The translations under genes were made by a program, and so were the position numbers. From the NCBI GenBank assembly GCA_030390025.1, contig CM059449.1, positions 13,702,001-13,766,000 on the forward strand: DNA of 64,000 nt, read 5' to 3'. A model generated the notes under the pieces. That model made no database searches and had not been told where the DNA came from. It saw only the letters and a program-made list of their open reading frames with translations. The DNA comes from Squalus acanthias. Taxonomy: Eukaryota. Below, piece by piece: positions 33,925-39,305 of this stretch. The first letter of the stretch is position 1; each line of letters opens with the position of its first letter.

Positions 33925-34059
33925 CTTTATTTCGTTGAACAAGGACTGTGATCACTATGAGCAGAGTCACAGTAATCAGCAATGTCACTCCACCTAACAC
34001 TGCAAGCCAAAACCAATCAAACGGAGAATCAGTTGAAGAGTTTCGTTTGCCACAAGGAT
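33925..34059 (-). CDS. Gene A exon 3: stalk and transmembrane segment
   Basis: Acceptor ttttttctttctacag|, donor G|gtattt, 135 nt, phase 1-1, in frame: HPCGKRNSSTDSPFDWFWLAVLGGVTLLITVTLLIVITVLVQRNK. No charged residue within the TM. Confidence 0.92.
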
Positions 34060-34416
34060 CTGTAGAAAGAAAAAAGCAATAATTAGTTATTTATTCGTAA
34101 GTCTAGCTAGTAAGAACAACAGCAAAGAAAACAGTGATACAAAGAGACGCCGACGGAAATAAATAGGGAGAAAGGCACACAGGCAGAAAGGCAAAGTAAT
34201 ACAAGAAAGATGGACGGGGTGGGAGAGAGACAGAGATAGAGACATGCAGCACCCATGGGCAGAAAGAGTGAGAAAGACAGAGAGGCAGACACTGAGGAGA
34301 GCTGAACAACAACAGAATTACCCATCAGGAAGGAAAGGGTGAAGGAAGCGGTAGAGAGTTTTAAATCTGGAAAAGATATCCCAGTGCCTTAATGTTATAT
34401 TGTTGGGTTCTCTTAC

Positions 34417-34743
34417 GCTTTACGGTAACCGTGGTTCCATTACCGACAGCCTTCCTCTGTCCCATTATTTCAATCTCGCAGTAGTACACGCCAGACTCGC
34501 ATTCTGTCATATTCTTAATTTGGATTGATGCATCTTTCCTCGAATTGAACGCATTCGTGTCGGCCTTTGTCAATCTGTTCTTGTATCTCGGAGAATCGAA
34601 GTCTATGGGATTGTTATCTATTCTCCAGCTGTAGGTACCCAACCCTAGTAATGTAAAGGTGCAATTCAAAATCACACTTTCGCCTTGGAATATTTTAACT
34701 GAAGGGGGGTGTTGCACTACTCCAGATGTAGCAGCCTCCATAC
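34417..34743 (-). CDS. Gene A exon 2: single VJ-type IgV domain, NKp30/NCR3-like
   Basis: Acceptor tttctttgtgcgtccctag|, donor C|gtaaga, 327 nt, phase 1-1. Encodes ...VVQHPPSVKIFQGESVILNCTF...YSWR...PRYKNRL...DASIQIKNMTECESGVYYCEIEIMGQRKAVGNGTTVTVK with B-strand Cys, C-strand Trp, xSGxYYC and a GNGT G strand. It resembles NKp30 as I recall it (PEFRGRL..., C-x-VEVLG...GNGT). Confidence 0.93.
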
Positions 34744-35204
34744 CTAGGGACGCACAAAGAAACACAAGGATTGATTAGCCATTGTTAAAGTAATGCGCAT
34801 TATCCACCGTGTACCGGTGCCGTCTTGGTTGAGTAGTAGCACTATCGTCTGTGACTCAAATGGTTGTAGGTTTTAAGCGTGGGTTTGAGCGCATTATTCT
34901 AGGATGGCACTTCAATGCAGTACTAAGGGAGTGTGTTTTTTATCCCCCAAAGCGGAGAATGTTCTCCCCGTGCAGTAGCCAGCGTTCAGTCTTCAAAAAA
35001 CGCCACCAAAACAGCTTATAAGCCATTCGTCTCATTACTGGTTGACGCGTATGCCTACAAAGCAACAAAGATTAGTCATGCATTGGCTGTGAAGCGCTTT
35101 GGGGTGGCTTGAGGCTGCGAAAAATACAATAGTTCTTTCTTTATCCAATGCTGCCTCAAATTACACTTTTGCTTTCGTTCAATAGCATGTTATTGTTAAT
35201 TCCA

Positions 35205-35880
35205 AAGAAATCACTAAAAGTTGCGACGCAGGTTAGCAAGGCCATTAAAAAAAGCAAACCAAGCAGTAGGGTTTATTTCTAAAGGTATAGAATTGAAAAG
35301 TAGGGAAGTTATGCTAAACCTGTAACAGAACCTTGGTTAGACCACACTTAGAGTACTGCATACAGTTCTGGTCGCCATATTATAAAAAGGATATAGAGGC
35401 GCTGGAGAGGCCGCAGAGAAGATTTACAAGGTTGATACCAGAAATGCGAGGGTATATATATCAGGAAAGGATGAACAGGCTGGGTTTATTTTCTCTTGAA
35501 AGGAGAAGGCTAAGGGGTGACCTAATAGGGGTCTTTAAAATTATGAAAGGTTTTGATAGAGTGGATACAGAGAGAATGTTTCCACTTGTGGGGAAGAGCA
35601 CAACTAGAGGCCATCAATATAAGATACTCACCAAGAAATCCAAAAGGGAATTCAGAAGAAACTTCTTTACCCACAGGGAATGGTTGAAATAAATAGTATA
35701 GATGCATTTAAAGGGAGACGATACAAGCAAATGAGGAAGAAGGGAATAGAGGGTTATTCTGATAGATTTAGATGAGGAAAGACGAGAGGAGGCTCGAGTG
35801 GAGCATAAACGCCGGCATGGACTGGTTGGGCCGAATGTCCTGTTTCTGTGCCGTATATCCTATGTAATCCTATGTAAATT
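35205..35880 (+). mobile_element. CR1 3' fragment in gene A intron 1
   Basis: VRPHLEYCIQFWSPYYKKDI; (atcctatgta)n tail. Confidence 0.9.
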
Positions 35881-37124
35881 ATTATATGAATGAAAGAAAG
35901 GAGATAGAGAGAAAGAGAGAAAAAAAATAGAAAAAATAAAATGTTGCATTTCTAATTGCTTCATTAGTAATAGTATGGAGTAATAAATCACTTAAATATA
36001 CTTTATATCCATATTTAATTATCTACGGATGTCTGATTTCCATATGAGGTAAATATAAGAAAACACGTTTAGTTAATATATAGAGGTGGAATTTGACTGA
36101 AATCCTGGTGTTCGATATTAGAGGGTTGCATATATTCAACCACAAGATATATGTTGTACAGTAAATCACTGCAAACTGTGTATATCTTAAATTCGGGGAA
36201 ATTAAAACATTGGCCCATGTGAATTCAGTGATCCGACCGACAGTGATTATCGAGTCTTATGCACCAAGCAACCGTCAGAAAATGAATTCGTTCAGGAAAG
36301 TGTGGCCATTATGAGGAGTTTGTGAAGCTGTCCGAGCCGCTGTTTCTTTAGTGAAGACGCGCACTATTCGCTCTTGTGAACATAAGGTCCCATTTGTCCA
36401 ACCAAGTTTCTGTACGCAGAGCTGCATCACTTCAGTGTTCAACGCCATGCTAATAAATAAATCAGCTTAATTTACTTCCTAGATTTAGAGATGATCATCT
36501 CGGATCCGGGCCCTACCTAGTGTCATGATTATTTCATTTGGATGCTACCCTCAAAGCGAAAAATTCGCTATGTCTAGATATATAGGATGTGCCATGTCAA
36601 AAACACAGTTATTGTAATCATTTCACATTTACAAAGCATAATTACTGGTTGTCCATGTACGTGTGCCCCTGATGGCTTATTCATTTAAAGGTTAATAAGG
36701 CTGGCGTAAGAAAATAATCGATTTTCAAGTATATCTAGCATCGTTAAACAAAACAATATGAACAATAGTATTCAACTAACAAGCAACAAATATTACTCTG
36801 ATCGCTATCCGAACTGTGTGTGCTAACACCCGAGAAAACATTCTGCCAGGAAGAACAACAGAGCACTGTAGTTACTATTCTAAATGTGGTACATATGGCT
36901 GCAAATGTTTTGGAACTAAACAATTCGGTGATTATATGGGTTGATTTTCAAACATATTAACACAGCTACACAATGGCACCGAGTGTTAATTCCAAAAACG
37001 CCAGCTTATTTGGAATTCAATATTGATTTGAACTGTTACTACAGGACATCTGAGCTTGGATATAATGCGATATCATCACTGATCGTGCTCTGCAAACCAT
37101 AAGTGAAATACCTTGATGCTAAAC

Positions 37125-37640
37125 ACTTGCCATAGAGGGAGTGCAGCGAAGGTTCACCAGAATGATTCCTGGGATGGCAGGACTGTCGTATGAGGAGAGA
37201 TTGGGTCGACTTGGCCTGTATTCACTAGAGTTTAGAAGAATGAGAGGGGATCTCATTGAAACGTATAAAATTCTGACAGGGCTAGACAGACTGGATGCAG
37301 GGAGGATGTTTCCCCTGTCTGGGGGGTCTAGAACAAGGGGGCACAGTCTCAGGATACGGGGTAGGACATTTAGGACTGAGATGAGGAGAAATGTCTTCAC
37401 TCAGAGGGTGGTGAACCTGTGGAATTCTCTACCACAGAAGGCTGTGGAGGCCAAGTCACTGAATATATTTAAGAAGGAGATAGATAGATTTCTAGACACA
37501 AAAGGCATCAAGGGGTATGAGGAGAGAGCGGGAATATGGTATTGAGATACCGGATCAGCCATGATCATATTGAATGGCGGAGCAGGCTCGAAGGGCCGAA
37601 TGGCCTACTCCTGCTCCTATTTTTCCATGTTTCTATTTTT
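37125..37640 (+). mobile_element. CR1 3' fragment (near-identical to 58420-59005)
   Basis: QRRFTRMIPGMAGLSYEERLGRLGLYSLE. Confidence 0.9.
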
Positions 37641-38479
37641 TCTAAATGACTATTAGTAAATTTGTGGCTCTGTACCGTGCAGTTAATGGAATCATTTACA
37701 TCAATCGTTTGTGCAAAATATGTATCGACTTTGGGCTGCATTGCAAGAGGTAAAATGAATAAACCTGGAGTCATCAATCTATTTGGCCCTGGCGAGATCA
37801 TATCTGGAGTACTGCGTGCAGTTTTGGTCTCCCTGTTTCAAAAAAGGATATTCGGTTATCGGAAGTGGTACAGGGAAGGGCTGCACGGTTGATCCCTGAA
37901 CTTAAGGGAATGAGGAACGAATAAAGATGGACGGCCCTGGGTCTTTTTTTTTATATAAGGGTATCTGAAAGGGGATATGATATAATATTTAAAATTATTA
38001 AACAAAAACTTGGATGAATTGGATTCAAGTCAGCTTTTCACTCGGTTACAGGATTTAAGCATATTTACAAATTAAAAACAGAAAATAAAGTAGGAACTGC
38101 AGGAGGAGCTTCTTTTTTACTTCAAGGGCGGTAAGTACATGGTACAGGGGTGGCGGATCGAGAATCTTTAGTAGGTTTCAGGAAGGAACTAGACAGGTTC
38201 TTTTCAACAAATGGGATTCAGGAATATTAGAAATGCACATGGGGAATATTGTGGGTAGGTGAGCTAGATGGACCAGCGGTATCCTCCTGCCTGAAACTAT
38301 TACTATGTTGCATGCAATCTTTTCATTCCCAGAGACCACAGACCTGCTAACAAACCTGCCTGGAAATTGTTTCTGTAGTTGCATATTGTTAACTAAGCAA
38401 AGCATATATTTTAGGGGGAAAAACAGGAGAATAAGTGAAATGCAGTTATTAAGATGCCTCTATGGTGGCTTATCCACTT

Positions 38480-39005
38480 TCAACAACAACAACAACAACA
38501 ACAACTTGTATTTATATAGCGCCTTTAACGCAGTAAAATCTCCCAAGGCGCTTCACAGGAGTATATAAGAAAAAAAATTGACACAGAGCCACAGAAGGAG
38601 AAATTAGGGCAGGTGACCAAAAGCTTGGTCAAAGAGGTAGGTTTTAAGGAGCGTCTAAAAGGAGGACAGAGAGGTAGCGAGGCGGAGAGGTTTAGGCGGG
38701 GAATTCCAGAGCTTAGGGCCTAGGCAACAGAAGGCACGGCCATCAATGGTTGGGTGATTATAATCAGAGATGCTCAAGAGGGCAGAATTACAGGCGCGCA
38801 GATATCTCGGGGGGTGGTGGGGCTGAAGGGGATTACAGAGGTAGGGAAGGGCGCGGCCATGGAGGGATTTGAAAACAAGGATGATAATTTTGAAATCGAG
38901 GCGTTGCTTAACCGGGAGCCAATGTAGGTCAGCGAGCACTGAAGAGATGGGCAAACGGGACTTGGTTCGAGTTAGGACACGGGCAGTCGAGTTTTGGATG
39001 ACCTT
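38480..39005 (-). mobile_element. L2 LINE 3' fragment
   Basis: LADLHWLPVKQRLDFKI...GRAFCCLGPKLWNS; (caa)n tail on the plus strand. Confidence 0.88.
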
Positions 39006-39244
39006 TCTGACTTTCGTGCATAAAGAGATCGCAAAATGTATATCCATTCAGGGTTAAATTACAAAAATACTAAAACTAAGCTGGGAACTGGTATTTATTC
39101 CTGCCACCGCAAAAGACAATATTGGAATTTGTTAAGCCATGCTTCTCTATTACTTTAAAAGCACATGCGATCATTCTATAGTCTGATTAATGATCGTGGT
39201 TCTCTTATAATATTTGAACAATAAAAGCATGACTCTTCACTTAC

Positions 39245-39305
39245 CCGTCAGAAACATTGAAATCAGAAGGAAAATAGCGGTTGTTGCCCACCGGTCCATC
39301 GCCAT
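39245..39305 (-). CDS. Gene A exon 1: signal peptide (MAMDRWATTAIFLLISMFLT-G)
   Basis: ATG at 39305 in context gcaATGG; hydrophobic 20-aa leader; ends in a phase-1 donor G|gtaagt that matches the phase-1 acceptor of the IgV exon. Confidence 0.85.

What the first reader, a model, noticed from the sequence alone, without database searches (positions are those of the whole stretch)
33925..39305. NKp30-like germline VJ domain on an uncharged transmembrane segment
Seen: a complete V domain including a J-like GNGTTVTV strand in one exon, ending at a splice donor with no RSS; the TM has no Arg or Lys. Known: mammalian NKp30 has a TM Arg to pair with CD3zeta/FcRgamma and a short tail; CD28/CTLA-4 need MYPPPY, which is absent here. 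Inference: an NCR3-family member that signals through its own tail, relevant to models of the pre-RAG VJ receptor ancestor.
Basis: partly seen in the sequence, partly recalled or inferred. Interest (0 to 1): 0.7.

Follow-up and report, generated by a model that had tools for sequence, protein, structure and literature searches.

The report
Shark NKp30-family receptor, known subtype
This is a real shark immune-receptor gene of the NKp30 (NCR3) family whose nurse-shark counterpart is already deposited; the small new point is a 64-residue inner tail, missing from that deposited sequence, whose membrane-near part has stayed almost unchanged from chimaeras to sharks and rays.

Summary
Observation confirmed. 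The minus-strand gene has seven exons (39305 to 22544), all introns GT-AG, 234 aa. Public contigs, probably RNA, join leader-V and V-TM-tail. The V exon holds the J-like GNGTTVTV strand, no RSS follows it, and the TM is uncharged. Human NKp30 is the best single-domain hit by sequence, profile and two fold searches. The V exon is 67% identical to nurse shark NCR3 QTT61900.1 and falls with it in a chimaera-ray-shark group (moderate support). So it is an orthologue of a deposited NCR3 subtype. All 3 nurse-shark NCR3 proteins retrieved have uncharged TMs. Residual interest: the deposited sequence stops just after the TM, apparently by intron read-through, and lacks the tail. The juxtamembrane segment is the most conserved part (88% against 60% for V; Tyr176 and Leu179 in 16 of 16), but it is no ITAM, canonical ITIM or YxxM/YxN motif. 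An ITIM-bearing paralogue lies upstream. Signalling by the tail is inferred, not shown. The 2021 shark NCR3 paper could not be read.

The parts
39306..39449 (-). 5' untranslated part of exon 1 (probably extends to about 39496); holds upstream ATGs, one in frame at 39338
   Evidence: X5 record 28 covers 39242-39449 and has 47 more letters; ATG list
39245..39305 (-). Exon 1 coding part: 20 residues of the signal peptide, phase-1 donor (split leader; last ~4 leader residues lie in the V exon, cleavage site inferred)
   Evidence: matches orthologue N-termini
34417..34743 (-). Exon 2: complete NKp30-like V domain with J-like G strand (GxG-T-x-V-x-V), Cys48/Cys109, extra Cys102 in the EF loop, three N-glycosylation sequons; no RSS
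33925..34059 (-). Exon 3: stalk with Cys132 and one sequon, uncharged TM (about 145-170) with a small-residue A-x-x-G-G patch, basic RNK anchor
32792..32810 (-). Exon 4 (19 nt): juxtamembrane YALL segment, Tyr176 and Leu179 invariant
   Evidence: length fits the 99-letter gap in X2 record 12
32635..32669 (-). Exon 5 (35 nt): tail, with Cys183 (14 of 16 orthologues)
28520..28563 (-). Exon 6 (44 nt): proline-rich in this species, not conserved as PxxP
22544..22627 (-). Exon 7 coding part: distal acidic-Tyr-Leu-His-Cys motif (Tyr211 13 of 15), basic C-terminus, stop codon
20084..22543 (-). 3' untranslated region: continuous with exon 7 to 21387; probably ends near a poly(A) signal at 20100
   Evidence: X2 record 12 and X1 records 1-5; signal scan; the end point is inferred
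62549..62668 (-). Upstream tandem paralogue: stalk + uncharged TM exon (its V exon lies beyond the window end or is missing)
   Evidence: 80% identical over 44 aa to the first half of Pristiophorus model P0001; exon ends read from the sequence
61450..61478 (-). Upstream paralogue: small tail exon (candidate)
   Evidence: read from sequence; resembles P0001 residues 266-275
59251..59460 (-). Upstream paralogue: last coding exon with two ITIM-type motifs (LHYAQL, VEYATV) and a YxN motif
   Evidence: 63% identical over 52 aa to P0001

Best explanation
The gene is this shark's orthologue of an old NCR3 (NKp30-family) subtype kept in chimaeras, rays and sharks and deposited for nurse shark as QTT61900.1. 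It encodes a non-rearranging type I receptor: split leader, one single-exon VJ-type domain, short stalk, uncharged TM, 64-residue tail. Shown: gene structure, splicing, fold, orthology, conservation pattern. Inferred: (1) the V domain binds a B7-family ligand, most likely B7-H6-like, on the same face as human NKp30; (2) stalk Cys132 pairs within the chain with a second Cys at the base of the domain (Cys102 in sharks and chimaera, Cys65 in rays), holding the domain close to the membrane; (3) with no TM Arg it does not use the CD3zeta/FcRgamma charge pair and works as an adaptor-independent co-receptor in the manner of the CD28 family. The tail rests on the inner leaflet (basic RNK, amphipathic helix 174-187, possibly palmitoylated Cys183, basic C-terminus), and its two tyrosines control uptake from the surface (YxxL) and docking of partners after Src-family phosphorylation (distal acidic-Tyr). 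I favour a modulating or co-stimulating role over classical ITIM inhibition, which the neighbouring paralogue supplies. Identity about 0.95; mechanism about 0.5.
For: NKp30 best PDB sequence hit, E 7.7e-9, ahead of SIRPa 6.3e-7. Best single-domain hit of a 15-row profile, 50 bits against 43.6 for TCR alpha. Model pLDDT 92.9; Foldseek ranks 1-4 are NKp30; VIA-align rank 1 of 48,161 is NKp30, Z 15.2, rmsd 2.5, 103 aligned, next TCR delta Z 14.0. V exon 72 of 108 identical to QTT61900.1, against 35% and 41% to the two other nurse-shark NCR3 proteins. Full-length tree follows species order: chimaera, (rays, sharks), supports 89/85, 87/89, 82/89. Human B7-H6 contacts Gly51 and Glu111 (PMC7409301, passages) align with Gly56 and Glu112; Gly56 is in 11 of 11 shark rows and position 112 is Glu/Asp in 15 of 17 rows (ten shark rows listed there plus the window). 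Cys102 in 11 of 17 and Cys65 in the other 6 of 17, never both; Cys132 in 16 of 17. Residues 171-186 are 88% conserved, V 60%, stalk 33%.
Against: No function was tested. The margins over other V domains are modest (Z 15.2 against 14.0), and four multi-domain proteins outscored NKp30 in the profile search by summing weak matches. No node holding the window sequence is starred in the full-length tree, the V-only tree leaves the chimaera sequence and all deep nodes open, and neither tree holds TCR, Ig, CD28, CD7, CD8, CD79 or mammalian NKp30 rows. Gly56 is lost in all 6 rays and the chimaera, so the ligand face is not constant. The YxxL has Lys at -2 and sits about 6 residues from the membrane; sister paralogues and QTT61901 keep the same helical register without the Tyr. 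Tyr211 is lost in 2 of 15 rows. The Cys swap is one evolutionary event, and Mobula has Cys65 without Cys132. No MHC marker gene was found in the window.
Confidence: 0.6

Rival explanations
1. The tail is structural, not a signalling platform: the TM helix runs on into an amphipathic or short coiled-coil helix (positions 176, 179/180, 183, 186) that, with the small-residue TM patch and Cys132, builds a homodimer or a heterodimer with another NCR3 paralogue that does the signalling.
For: Same register without Tyr in paralogues P0123, P0117, P0083 and P0098; helical hydrophobic moment 0.42-0.75 over 11 residues; the chimaera has Arg at 178 on the polar face. A stalk Cys forms the dimer bond in CD28 and CTLA-4 (recalled).
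Against: Tyr176 is invariant in 16 of 16 rows where Phe or Leu would serve a zipper. The Cys65/Cys102 alternation points to an intrachain partner for Cys132.
Confidence: 0.2
2. It is an inhibitory receptor using a non-canonical ITIM-like YxxL, as proposed for the (F/Y)xxL motif of LAG-3.
For: Uncharged TM with invariant YxxL. LAG-3 from sharks to mammals keeps an ITIM-like (F/Y)xxL(D/E) with an inhibitory effect (PMC10768021, passages).
Against: Lys at -2, no second ITIM, no acidic residue after the Leu; canonical double ITIMs are present in the neighbouring paralogue and other family members.
Confidence: 0.12
3. It is an activating receptor that still pairs with an ITAM adaptor, through polar or aromatic TM contacts rather than an Arg.
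For: TM start is conserved (Trp147, Gly152/153 in most rows). Some receptors pair with FcRgamma without a basic residue (recalled).
Against: Family members that look adaptor-coupled have a TM Arg/Lys and mostly short tails (9 of 35 proteins with a TM call); this group has neither feature.
Confidence: 0.05
4. It belongs to another IgV family (CD28H-like, SIRP, MPZL1, TCR V, CD79) and the NCR3 names are carried-over automatic labels.
For: Two orthologues are auto-named 'myelin protein zero-like 1'; SIRPa is the second family; deep tree nodes are open.
Against: NKp30 is first in four searches; QTT61900.1 is a GenBank entry named NCR3; no PPP or EIP motif that defines CD28-family CDR3 loops (PMC11599192, parts 1-3 of 6 read); SIRP-like rows form their own group (98) apart from this one.
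Confidence: 0.03

Closest known systems
Nurse shark NCR3 QTT61900.1 (UniRef A0A8A9WQH3), inferred to be one of the eight sequences MT914154-914161 of Kinlein et al. 2021 (paper not read; title seen in reference lists; accession range in PMC12227049)
   Same: 67% identical V domain, same leader, Cys102/Cys132, uncharged TM; 106 of 174 positions identical overall; same tree group.
   Different: The deposited protein is 175 aa and ends ...RRNKGT, as expected from reading through the TM-exon donor (the window's read-through gives NKG...); it lacks the four tail exons. The window gene and RefSeq models of other sharks have a 60-65-residue tail.
Human NKp30 / NCR3 (PDB 3NOI, 3PV6, 6YJP)
   Same: Single-exon VJ-type domain, GNGT G strand, short C'/C'' region and a helix before strand E, Gly51 and Glu111 contact equivalents.
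   Different: About 25% identity; no TM Arg (human TM Arg pairs with CD3zeta/FcRgamma, PMC6514059 passages); long tyrosine tail; extra Cys pair; BC loop four residues shorter.
CD28 / CTLA-4 / CD28H / CD28X family
   Same: V-stalk(Cys)-uncharged TM-tyrosine tail layout; GxG in the G strand as in CTLA-4; probably works like them, without an ITAM adaptor.
   Different: No PPP or EIP in the CDR3 loop, no TM YxxxxT, no YxxM/YxN (definitions from PMC11599192); none among the top 60 sequence hits.
UrIg / UrIg2 (non-rearranging shark VJ-C1 genes)
   Same: Single-exon VJ domain, split leader, no RSS.
   Different: No C1 domain; GxG not preceded by Phe/Trp; published trees put NCR3 further from Ig/TCR than UrIg2 (PMC12227049 section 7).

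Membership tests
NCR3/NKp30 family (jawed vertebrates) | One exon encodes a complete VJ-type domain with GxG G strand and no RSS | tested here: met
NCR3/NKp30 family (jawed vertebrates) | NKp30 is the nearest solved domain by sequence and fold | tested here: met
   (best single domain)
NCR3/NKp30 family (jawed vertebrates) | Groups with a deposited shark NCR3 sequence | tested here: met
   67% to QTT61900.1; shark group 93 SH-aLRT, 82/89; not starred
NCR3/NKp30 family (jawed vertebrates) | Monophyly of all NCR3 against TCR/Ig/CD28/CD7/CD8/CD79 outgroups | tested here: inconclusive
   Deep nodes open; only SIRP-like and unnamed rows were available as outgroups
NCR3/NKp30 family (jawed vertebrates) | Lies in a tandem NCR3 cluster linked to the MHC | tested here: inconclusive
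   Tandem paralogue upstream; orthologues share a contig length with other NCR3-like proteins in horn shark, sawfish, cloudy catshark and little skate; no MHC marker found in the window and no genome held
NCR3/NKp30 family (jawed vertebrates) | Binds B7-H6 | not testable with these tools
   Only indirect: Gly56 and Glu112 match human contacts Gly51 and Glu111
Mammalian-type activating NKp30 | TM Arg pairing with CD3zeta/FcRgamma, short tail | tested here: not met
   No charged TM residue in 18 of 18 rows; 64-residue tail
CD28/CTLA-4/ICOS/CD28X | PPP motif in the CDR3 loop | tested here: not met
   FG loop reads EIEIMGQRK; definition from PMC11599192
CD28H / CD28HL1-2 | EIP motif in CDR3 and YxN or Y[E/D]SF tail motif | tested here: not met
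Canonical ITIM receptor | [I/L/V/S]xYxx[L/V] in the tail | tested here: not met
   No match in the tail; met by the upstream paralogue
Rearranging TCR/Ig V segment or germline-joined Ig | RSS after V, or [F/W]GxG J motif followed by C1 exons | tested here: not met
   No RSS; residue before GxG is V/S/T/A/K/N/L, never F/W, in 18 of 18 rows; V splices straight to the TM exon

The most novel reading that the evidence does not exclude
This NCR3 subtype is a 400-million-year-old CTLA-4-like scavenger in the NKp30/B7-H6 system: an adaptor-free receptor whose invariant juxtamembrane YxxL drives constant AP-2 uptake and removes or competes for B7-H6-type ligand. It would sit in one cluster with Arg-TM activating and double-ITIM inhibitory paralogues, so the ancestral NCR3 locus held three signalling modes, and the deposited nurse-shark sequence missed this because it lacks the tail.
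Probability: 0.2. Interest if true: 0.6.

Novelty: new member of a known kind. Interest (0 to 1): 0.27.

Why it matters
The gene itself adds one more shark species to a known NCR3 subtype and does not change models of the pre-RAG VJ ancestor. Two details may be useful to the few groups working on it. The deposited reference for this subtype lacks the tail, so its signalling type may have been misjudged. And the tail's first 16 residues are more conserved than the ligand-binding domain across chimaeras, rays and sharks, which marks a function worth testing and bears on whether ancestral NKp30 signalled like CD28-family co-receptors before the mammalian adaptor-coupled form became the only one.

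Tried and rejected
No whole genome is held for the window, so synteny could not be read. First exon joins were off by one base in exons 2 and 6 and were corrected. Structure prediction of the full Heptranchias protein from 7 sequences failed, pLDDT 42. The homodimer job on Heptranchias residues 26-190 gave no answer (0.24, 0.23; mark 0.32; no evidence either way). No RNA holder was listed as such; the 8 runs were guessed to be RNA, and repeats crowded the joints table, so the three small exons are supported only by the 99-letter gap and by orthologues. Candidate last exons at acceptors near 22198 and 19970 were rejected: the contig runs on unspliced from 22626 to 21387. P0123, P0117 and P0093 first looked like bony-vertebrate orthologues but are elasmobranch paralogues. 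PxxP/PxxPxR docking rejected as species-specific. A CD4/CD8-type Lck zinc clasp was considered: the distal motif is H-C-H, not CxC or CxH as defined in PMC10768021. The careful V-only tree did not finish; the quick tree is reported. No second V exon in the window, no Rfam match. CD28, CTLA-4, CD7 and CD8 were not listed among the top fold or sequence hits; absence from such lists excludes nothing. Kinlein 2021 and Ohta & Flajnik 2015 are not held. Eight paper searches listed no paper devoted to this subtype's tail, but subscription papers are outside the library and no supplements were opened; the Kinlein paper and its supplements may already show the uncharged TM or the tail. Earlier scan notes had nothing bearing on it.
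Full report
1. What is there. The finding is a minus-strand gene in a cartilaginous-fish window full of LINE- and SINE-type repeats. Four of the 8 listed runs (guessed RNA) were laid on 19450-39449. One contig (X2 record 12) carries V, then TM, then 99 unlisted letters, then 22626-21387 unspliced; 99 equals the three small exons (19+35+44) plus one base. Another (X5 record 28) joins leader to V. The V exon is a Pfam V-set domain that includes the G strand GNGTTVTV. An RSS scan gave 43 loose hits in the window, 40 of them in a CA-rich repeat and none after the V exon. The TM has no charged residue.

2. What it is. Against solved structures the V exon's best hits are four human NKp30 chains (E about 8e-9), then SIRPa (6e-7), Ig light chains and TCR alpha. 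A 15-row orthologue profile gives NKp30 50 bits as a single domain and TCR alpha 43.6; four multi-domain proteins rank higher only by summing weak matches. A model from a 54-row alignment is confident (pLDDT 92.9). Foldseek ranks NKp30 first to fourth and VIA-align ranks it first of 48,161 chains (Z 15.2, rmsd 2.5, 103 aligned; TCR delta 14.0, CD79b 13.1). A protein search returned 9 of 129 candidates, all sharks, 66-79% identical; a profile search returned 18 of 8,000 scored, adding rays and skates; an elephant-shark protein named NCR3 (V9LBU8) has the same layout. The decisive row came: the 90% cluster of the whale-shark orthologue holds QTT61900.1, 'natural cytotoxicity triggering receptor 3 [Ginglymostoma cirratum]'. 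The window V exon is 72 of 108 identical to it, against 35% and 41% to two other nurse-shark NCR3 entries. In a 30-row full-length tree the group follows species order, chimaera then rays and sharks, with the window next to Heptranchias; supports are moderate (89/85, 87/89, 82/89, 92/89) and none of these nodes is starred. The 90-row V-only tree agrees on the shark (93) and elasmobranch (91) groups but leaves the chimaera row and deep nodes open. Neither tree had TCR, Ig, CD28-family, CD7, CD8, CD79 or mammalian NKp30 rows. PMC12227049 lists eight nurse-shark NCR3 accessions and calls NCR3 a non-rearranging, MHC-linked VJ gene (passages and section 7). I infer that QTT61900 is one of them and comes from Kinlein et al. 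2021, which I could not read.

3. Surroundings. About 20 kb upstream, on the same strand, lie the TM exon and tail exons of a paralogue with two ITIM-type motifs and a YxN; its V exon is not in the window. A Pristiophorus gene model fuses the same two neighbours in the same order (P0001), so the tandem is conserved. In four other species the orthologue shares a contig length with other NCR3-like proteins. Among 39 family proteins examined, 35 gave a TM call; 9 had Arg/Lys in the TM core, mostly with short tails, and many others had uncharged TMs with ITIM-type tails, including lungfish; all 3 nurse-shark NCR3 proteins retrieved are uncharged. An uncharged NCR3 TM is therefore ordinary.

4. Conservation. 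I aligned 17 orthologue rows to the model, leaving out isoform duplicates, near-identical cluster members, three further ray entries and the fused Pristiophorus model. Identity to the model by region: leader 56%, V 60%, stalk 33%, TM 59%, residues 171-186 88%, mid-tail 53%, residues 209-217 70%, C-terminus 41%. Tyr176, Ala177, Leu179 and Arg181 are in 16 of 16 rows with a tail, Cys183 in 14 of 16, Tyr211 in 13 of 15, Cys214 in 14 of 15. The proline motifs of the window protein are not conserved. Cys102 (EF loop) is in 11 of 17 rows (sharks, chimaera) and Cys65 (after strand C) in the other 6 (rays), never both; stalk Cys132 is in 16 of 17. Both loops lie at the membrane-near end of a V domain (established Ig topology, recalled), so an intrachain bond to the stalk is the simplest reading; it rests on one evolutionary switch and Mobula is an exception. 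Human NKp30 contacts B7-H6 through Gly51, Val53 and Glu111 (PMC7409301, passages); these align with Gly56, Tyr58 and Glu112. Gly56 holds in sharks but not in rays or the chimaera. QTT61900.1 ends two residues after the RNK anchor with Gly-Thr; reading the window's TM exon through its donor also gives Gly at that place, whereas splicing gives Ala. The deposited entry is thus probably an intron read-through and lacks the tail.

5. How it most likely works. Shown: structure, splicing, fold, orthology, conservation. Inferred: a non-rearranging lymphocyte receptor that binds a B7-H6-like ligand and, lacking the TM Arg that couples human NKp30 to CD3zeta/FcRgamma (PMC6514059, passages), acts without an ITAM adaptor, like a CD28-family co-receptor. 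The tail has no ITAM, canonical ITIM, ITSM, YxxM or YxN. Its invariant YxxL fits an AP-2 uptake signal or a non-canonical SH2 site, and lies in a helix whose register is shared by paralogues without the Tyr, which keeps a structural reading alive. I put adaptor-free modulation through the tail tyrosines at about 0.5-0.6, a structural tail at 0.2, ITIM-like inhibition at 0.12, hidden adaptor pairing at 0.05, another family at 0.03.

6. Novelty and verdict. It is a member of the NCR3 family and an orthologue of a deposited subtype; it fails the tests for mammalian-type NKp30, CD28/CTLA-4/CD28H (PMC11599192, parts 1-3 of 6 read) and rearranging V genes. It adds nothing specific to the pre-RAG question; UrIg/UrIg2 are the published closer candidates. 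Not found in the eight paper searches: the missing tail in the deposited entry, the strong juxtamembrane conservation and the Cys swap; the unread 2021 paper may cover some of this. Other papers touched: PMC10751288, PMC10450919, PMC12272517, PMC3964593, PMC12619710, PMC10768021 (keyword passages only). Interest 0.27.

Noticed in passing
window 62668-59251 (-): TM and tail exons of a second NCR3-like gene with two ITIM-type motifs and a YxN motif; V exon not in the window. Pristiophorus model P0001 wrongly fuses this gene to the next one.
   Followed up: partly
P0189 (QTT61900.1), C-terminus: The deposited nurse-shark NCR3 ends right after the TM as if read into the intron; it may be a truncated entry or a real tailless isoform. 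The window's read-through would add 9 residues and stop at about 33897.
   Followed up: partly
window 39492-39338 (-): Six upstream ATGs in the 5' leader: four out of frame (ORFs of 17-49 codons), one short in-frame ORF and one in-frame extension of 11 residues; could damp translation.
   Followed up: no
P0123, P0182/P0117, P0093: A sister NCR3-like paralogue in catshark, sawfish and skate keeps the EF-loop Cys and the juxtamembrane helix register but has Cys in place of the Tyr (catshark, sawfish) and a distal tyrosine; mostly named 'uncharacterized'.
   Followed up: partly
P0165, P0166, P0164, P0186: Database isoforms lacking most of the V exon (Heptranchias), all or part of the TM (Mobula, Hypanus) or the YALL exons (Chiloscyllium); real splice forms or model errors not checked.
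   Followed up: no
P0172 (Polypterus): A gene model fusing several NCR3-like V domains to a PRRC2A fragment, a hint that the bichir NCR3 cluster abuts an MHC class III gene (class III status recalled).
   Followed up: no
window 52400-57300: About 5 kb CA-rich low-complexity repeat with strong strand skew; gives long pseudo-ORFs and most RSS-like hits.
   Followed up: no
window 47538-47858 (-): 107-codon stop-free stretch in non-repeat DNA; no Pfam match above cut-off and no match to the stored proteins. Unexplained, probably chance.
   Followed up: partly
window about 44360-45250 and 61170-61320: Two assembly gaps (1,190 N in all) between the two NCR3-like genes; an exon or small gene could be hidden there.
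   Followed up: no
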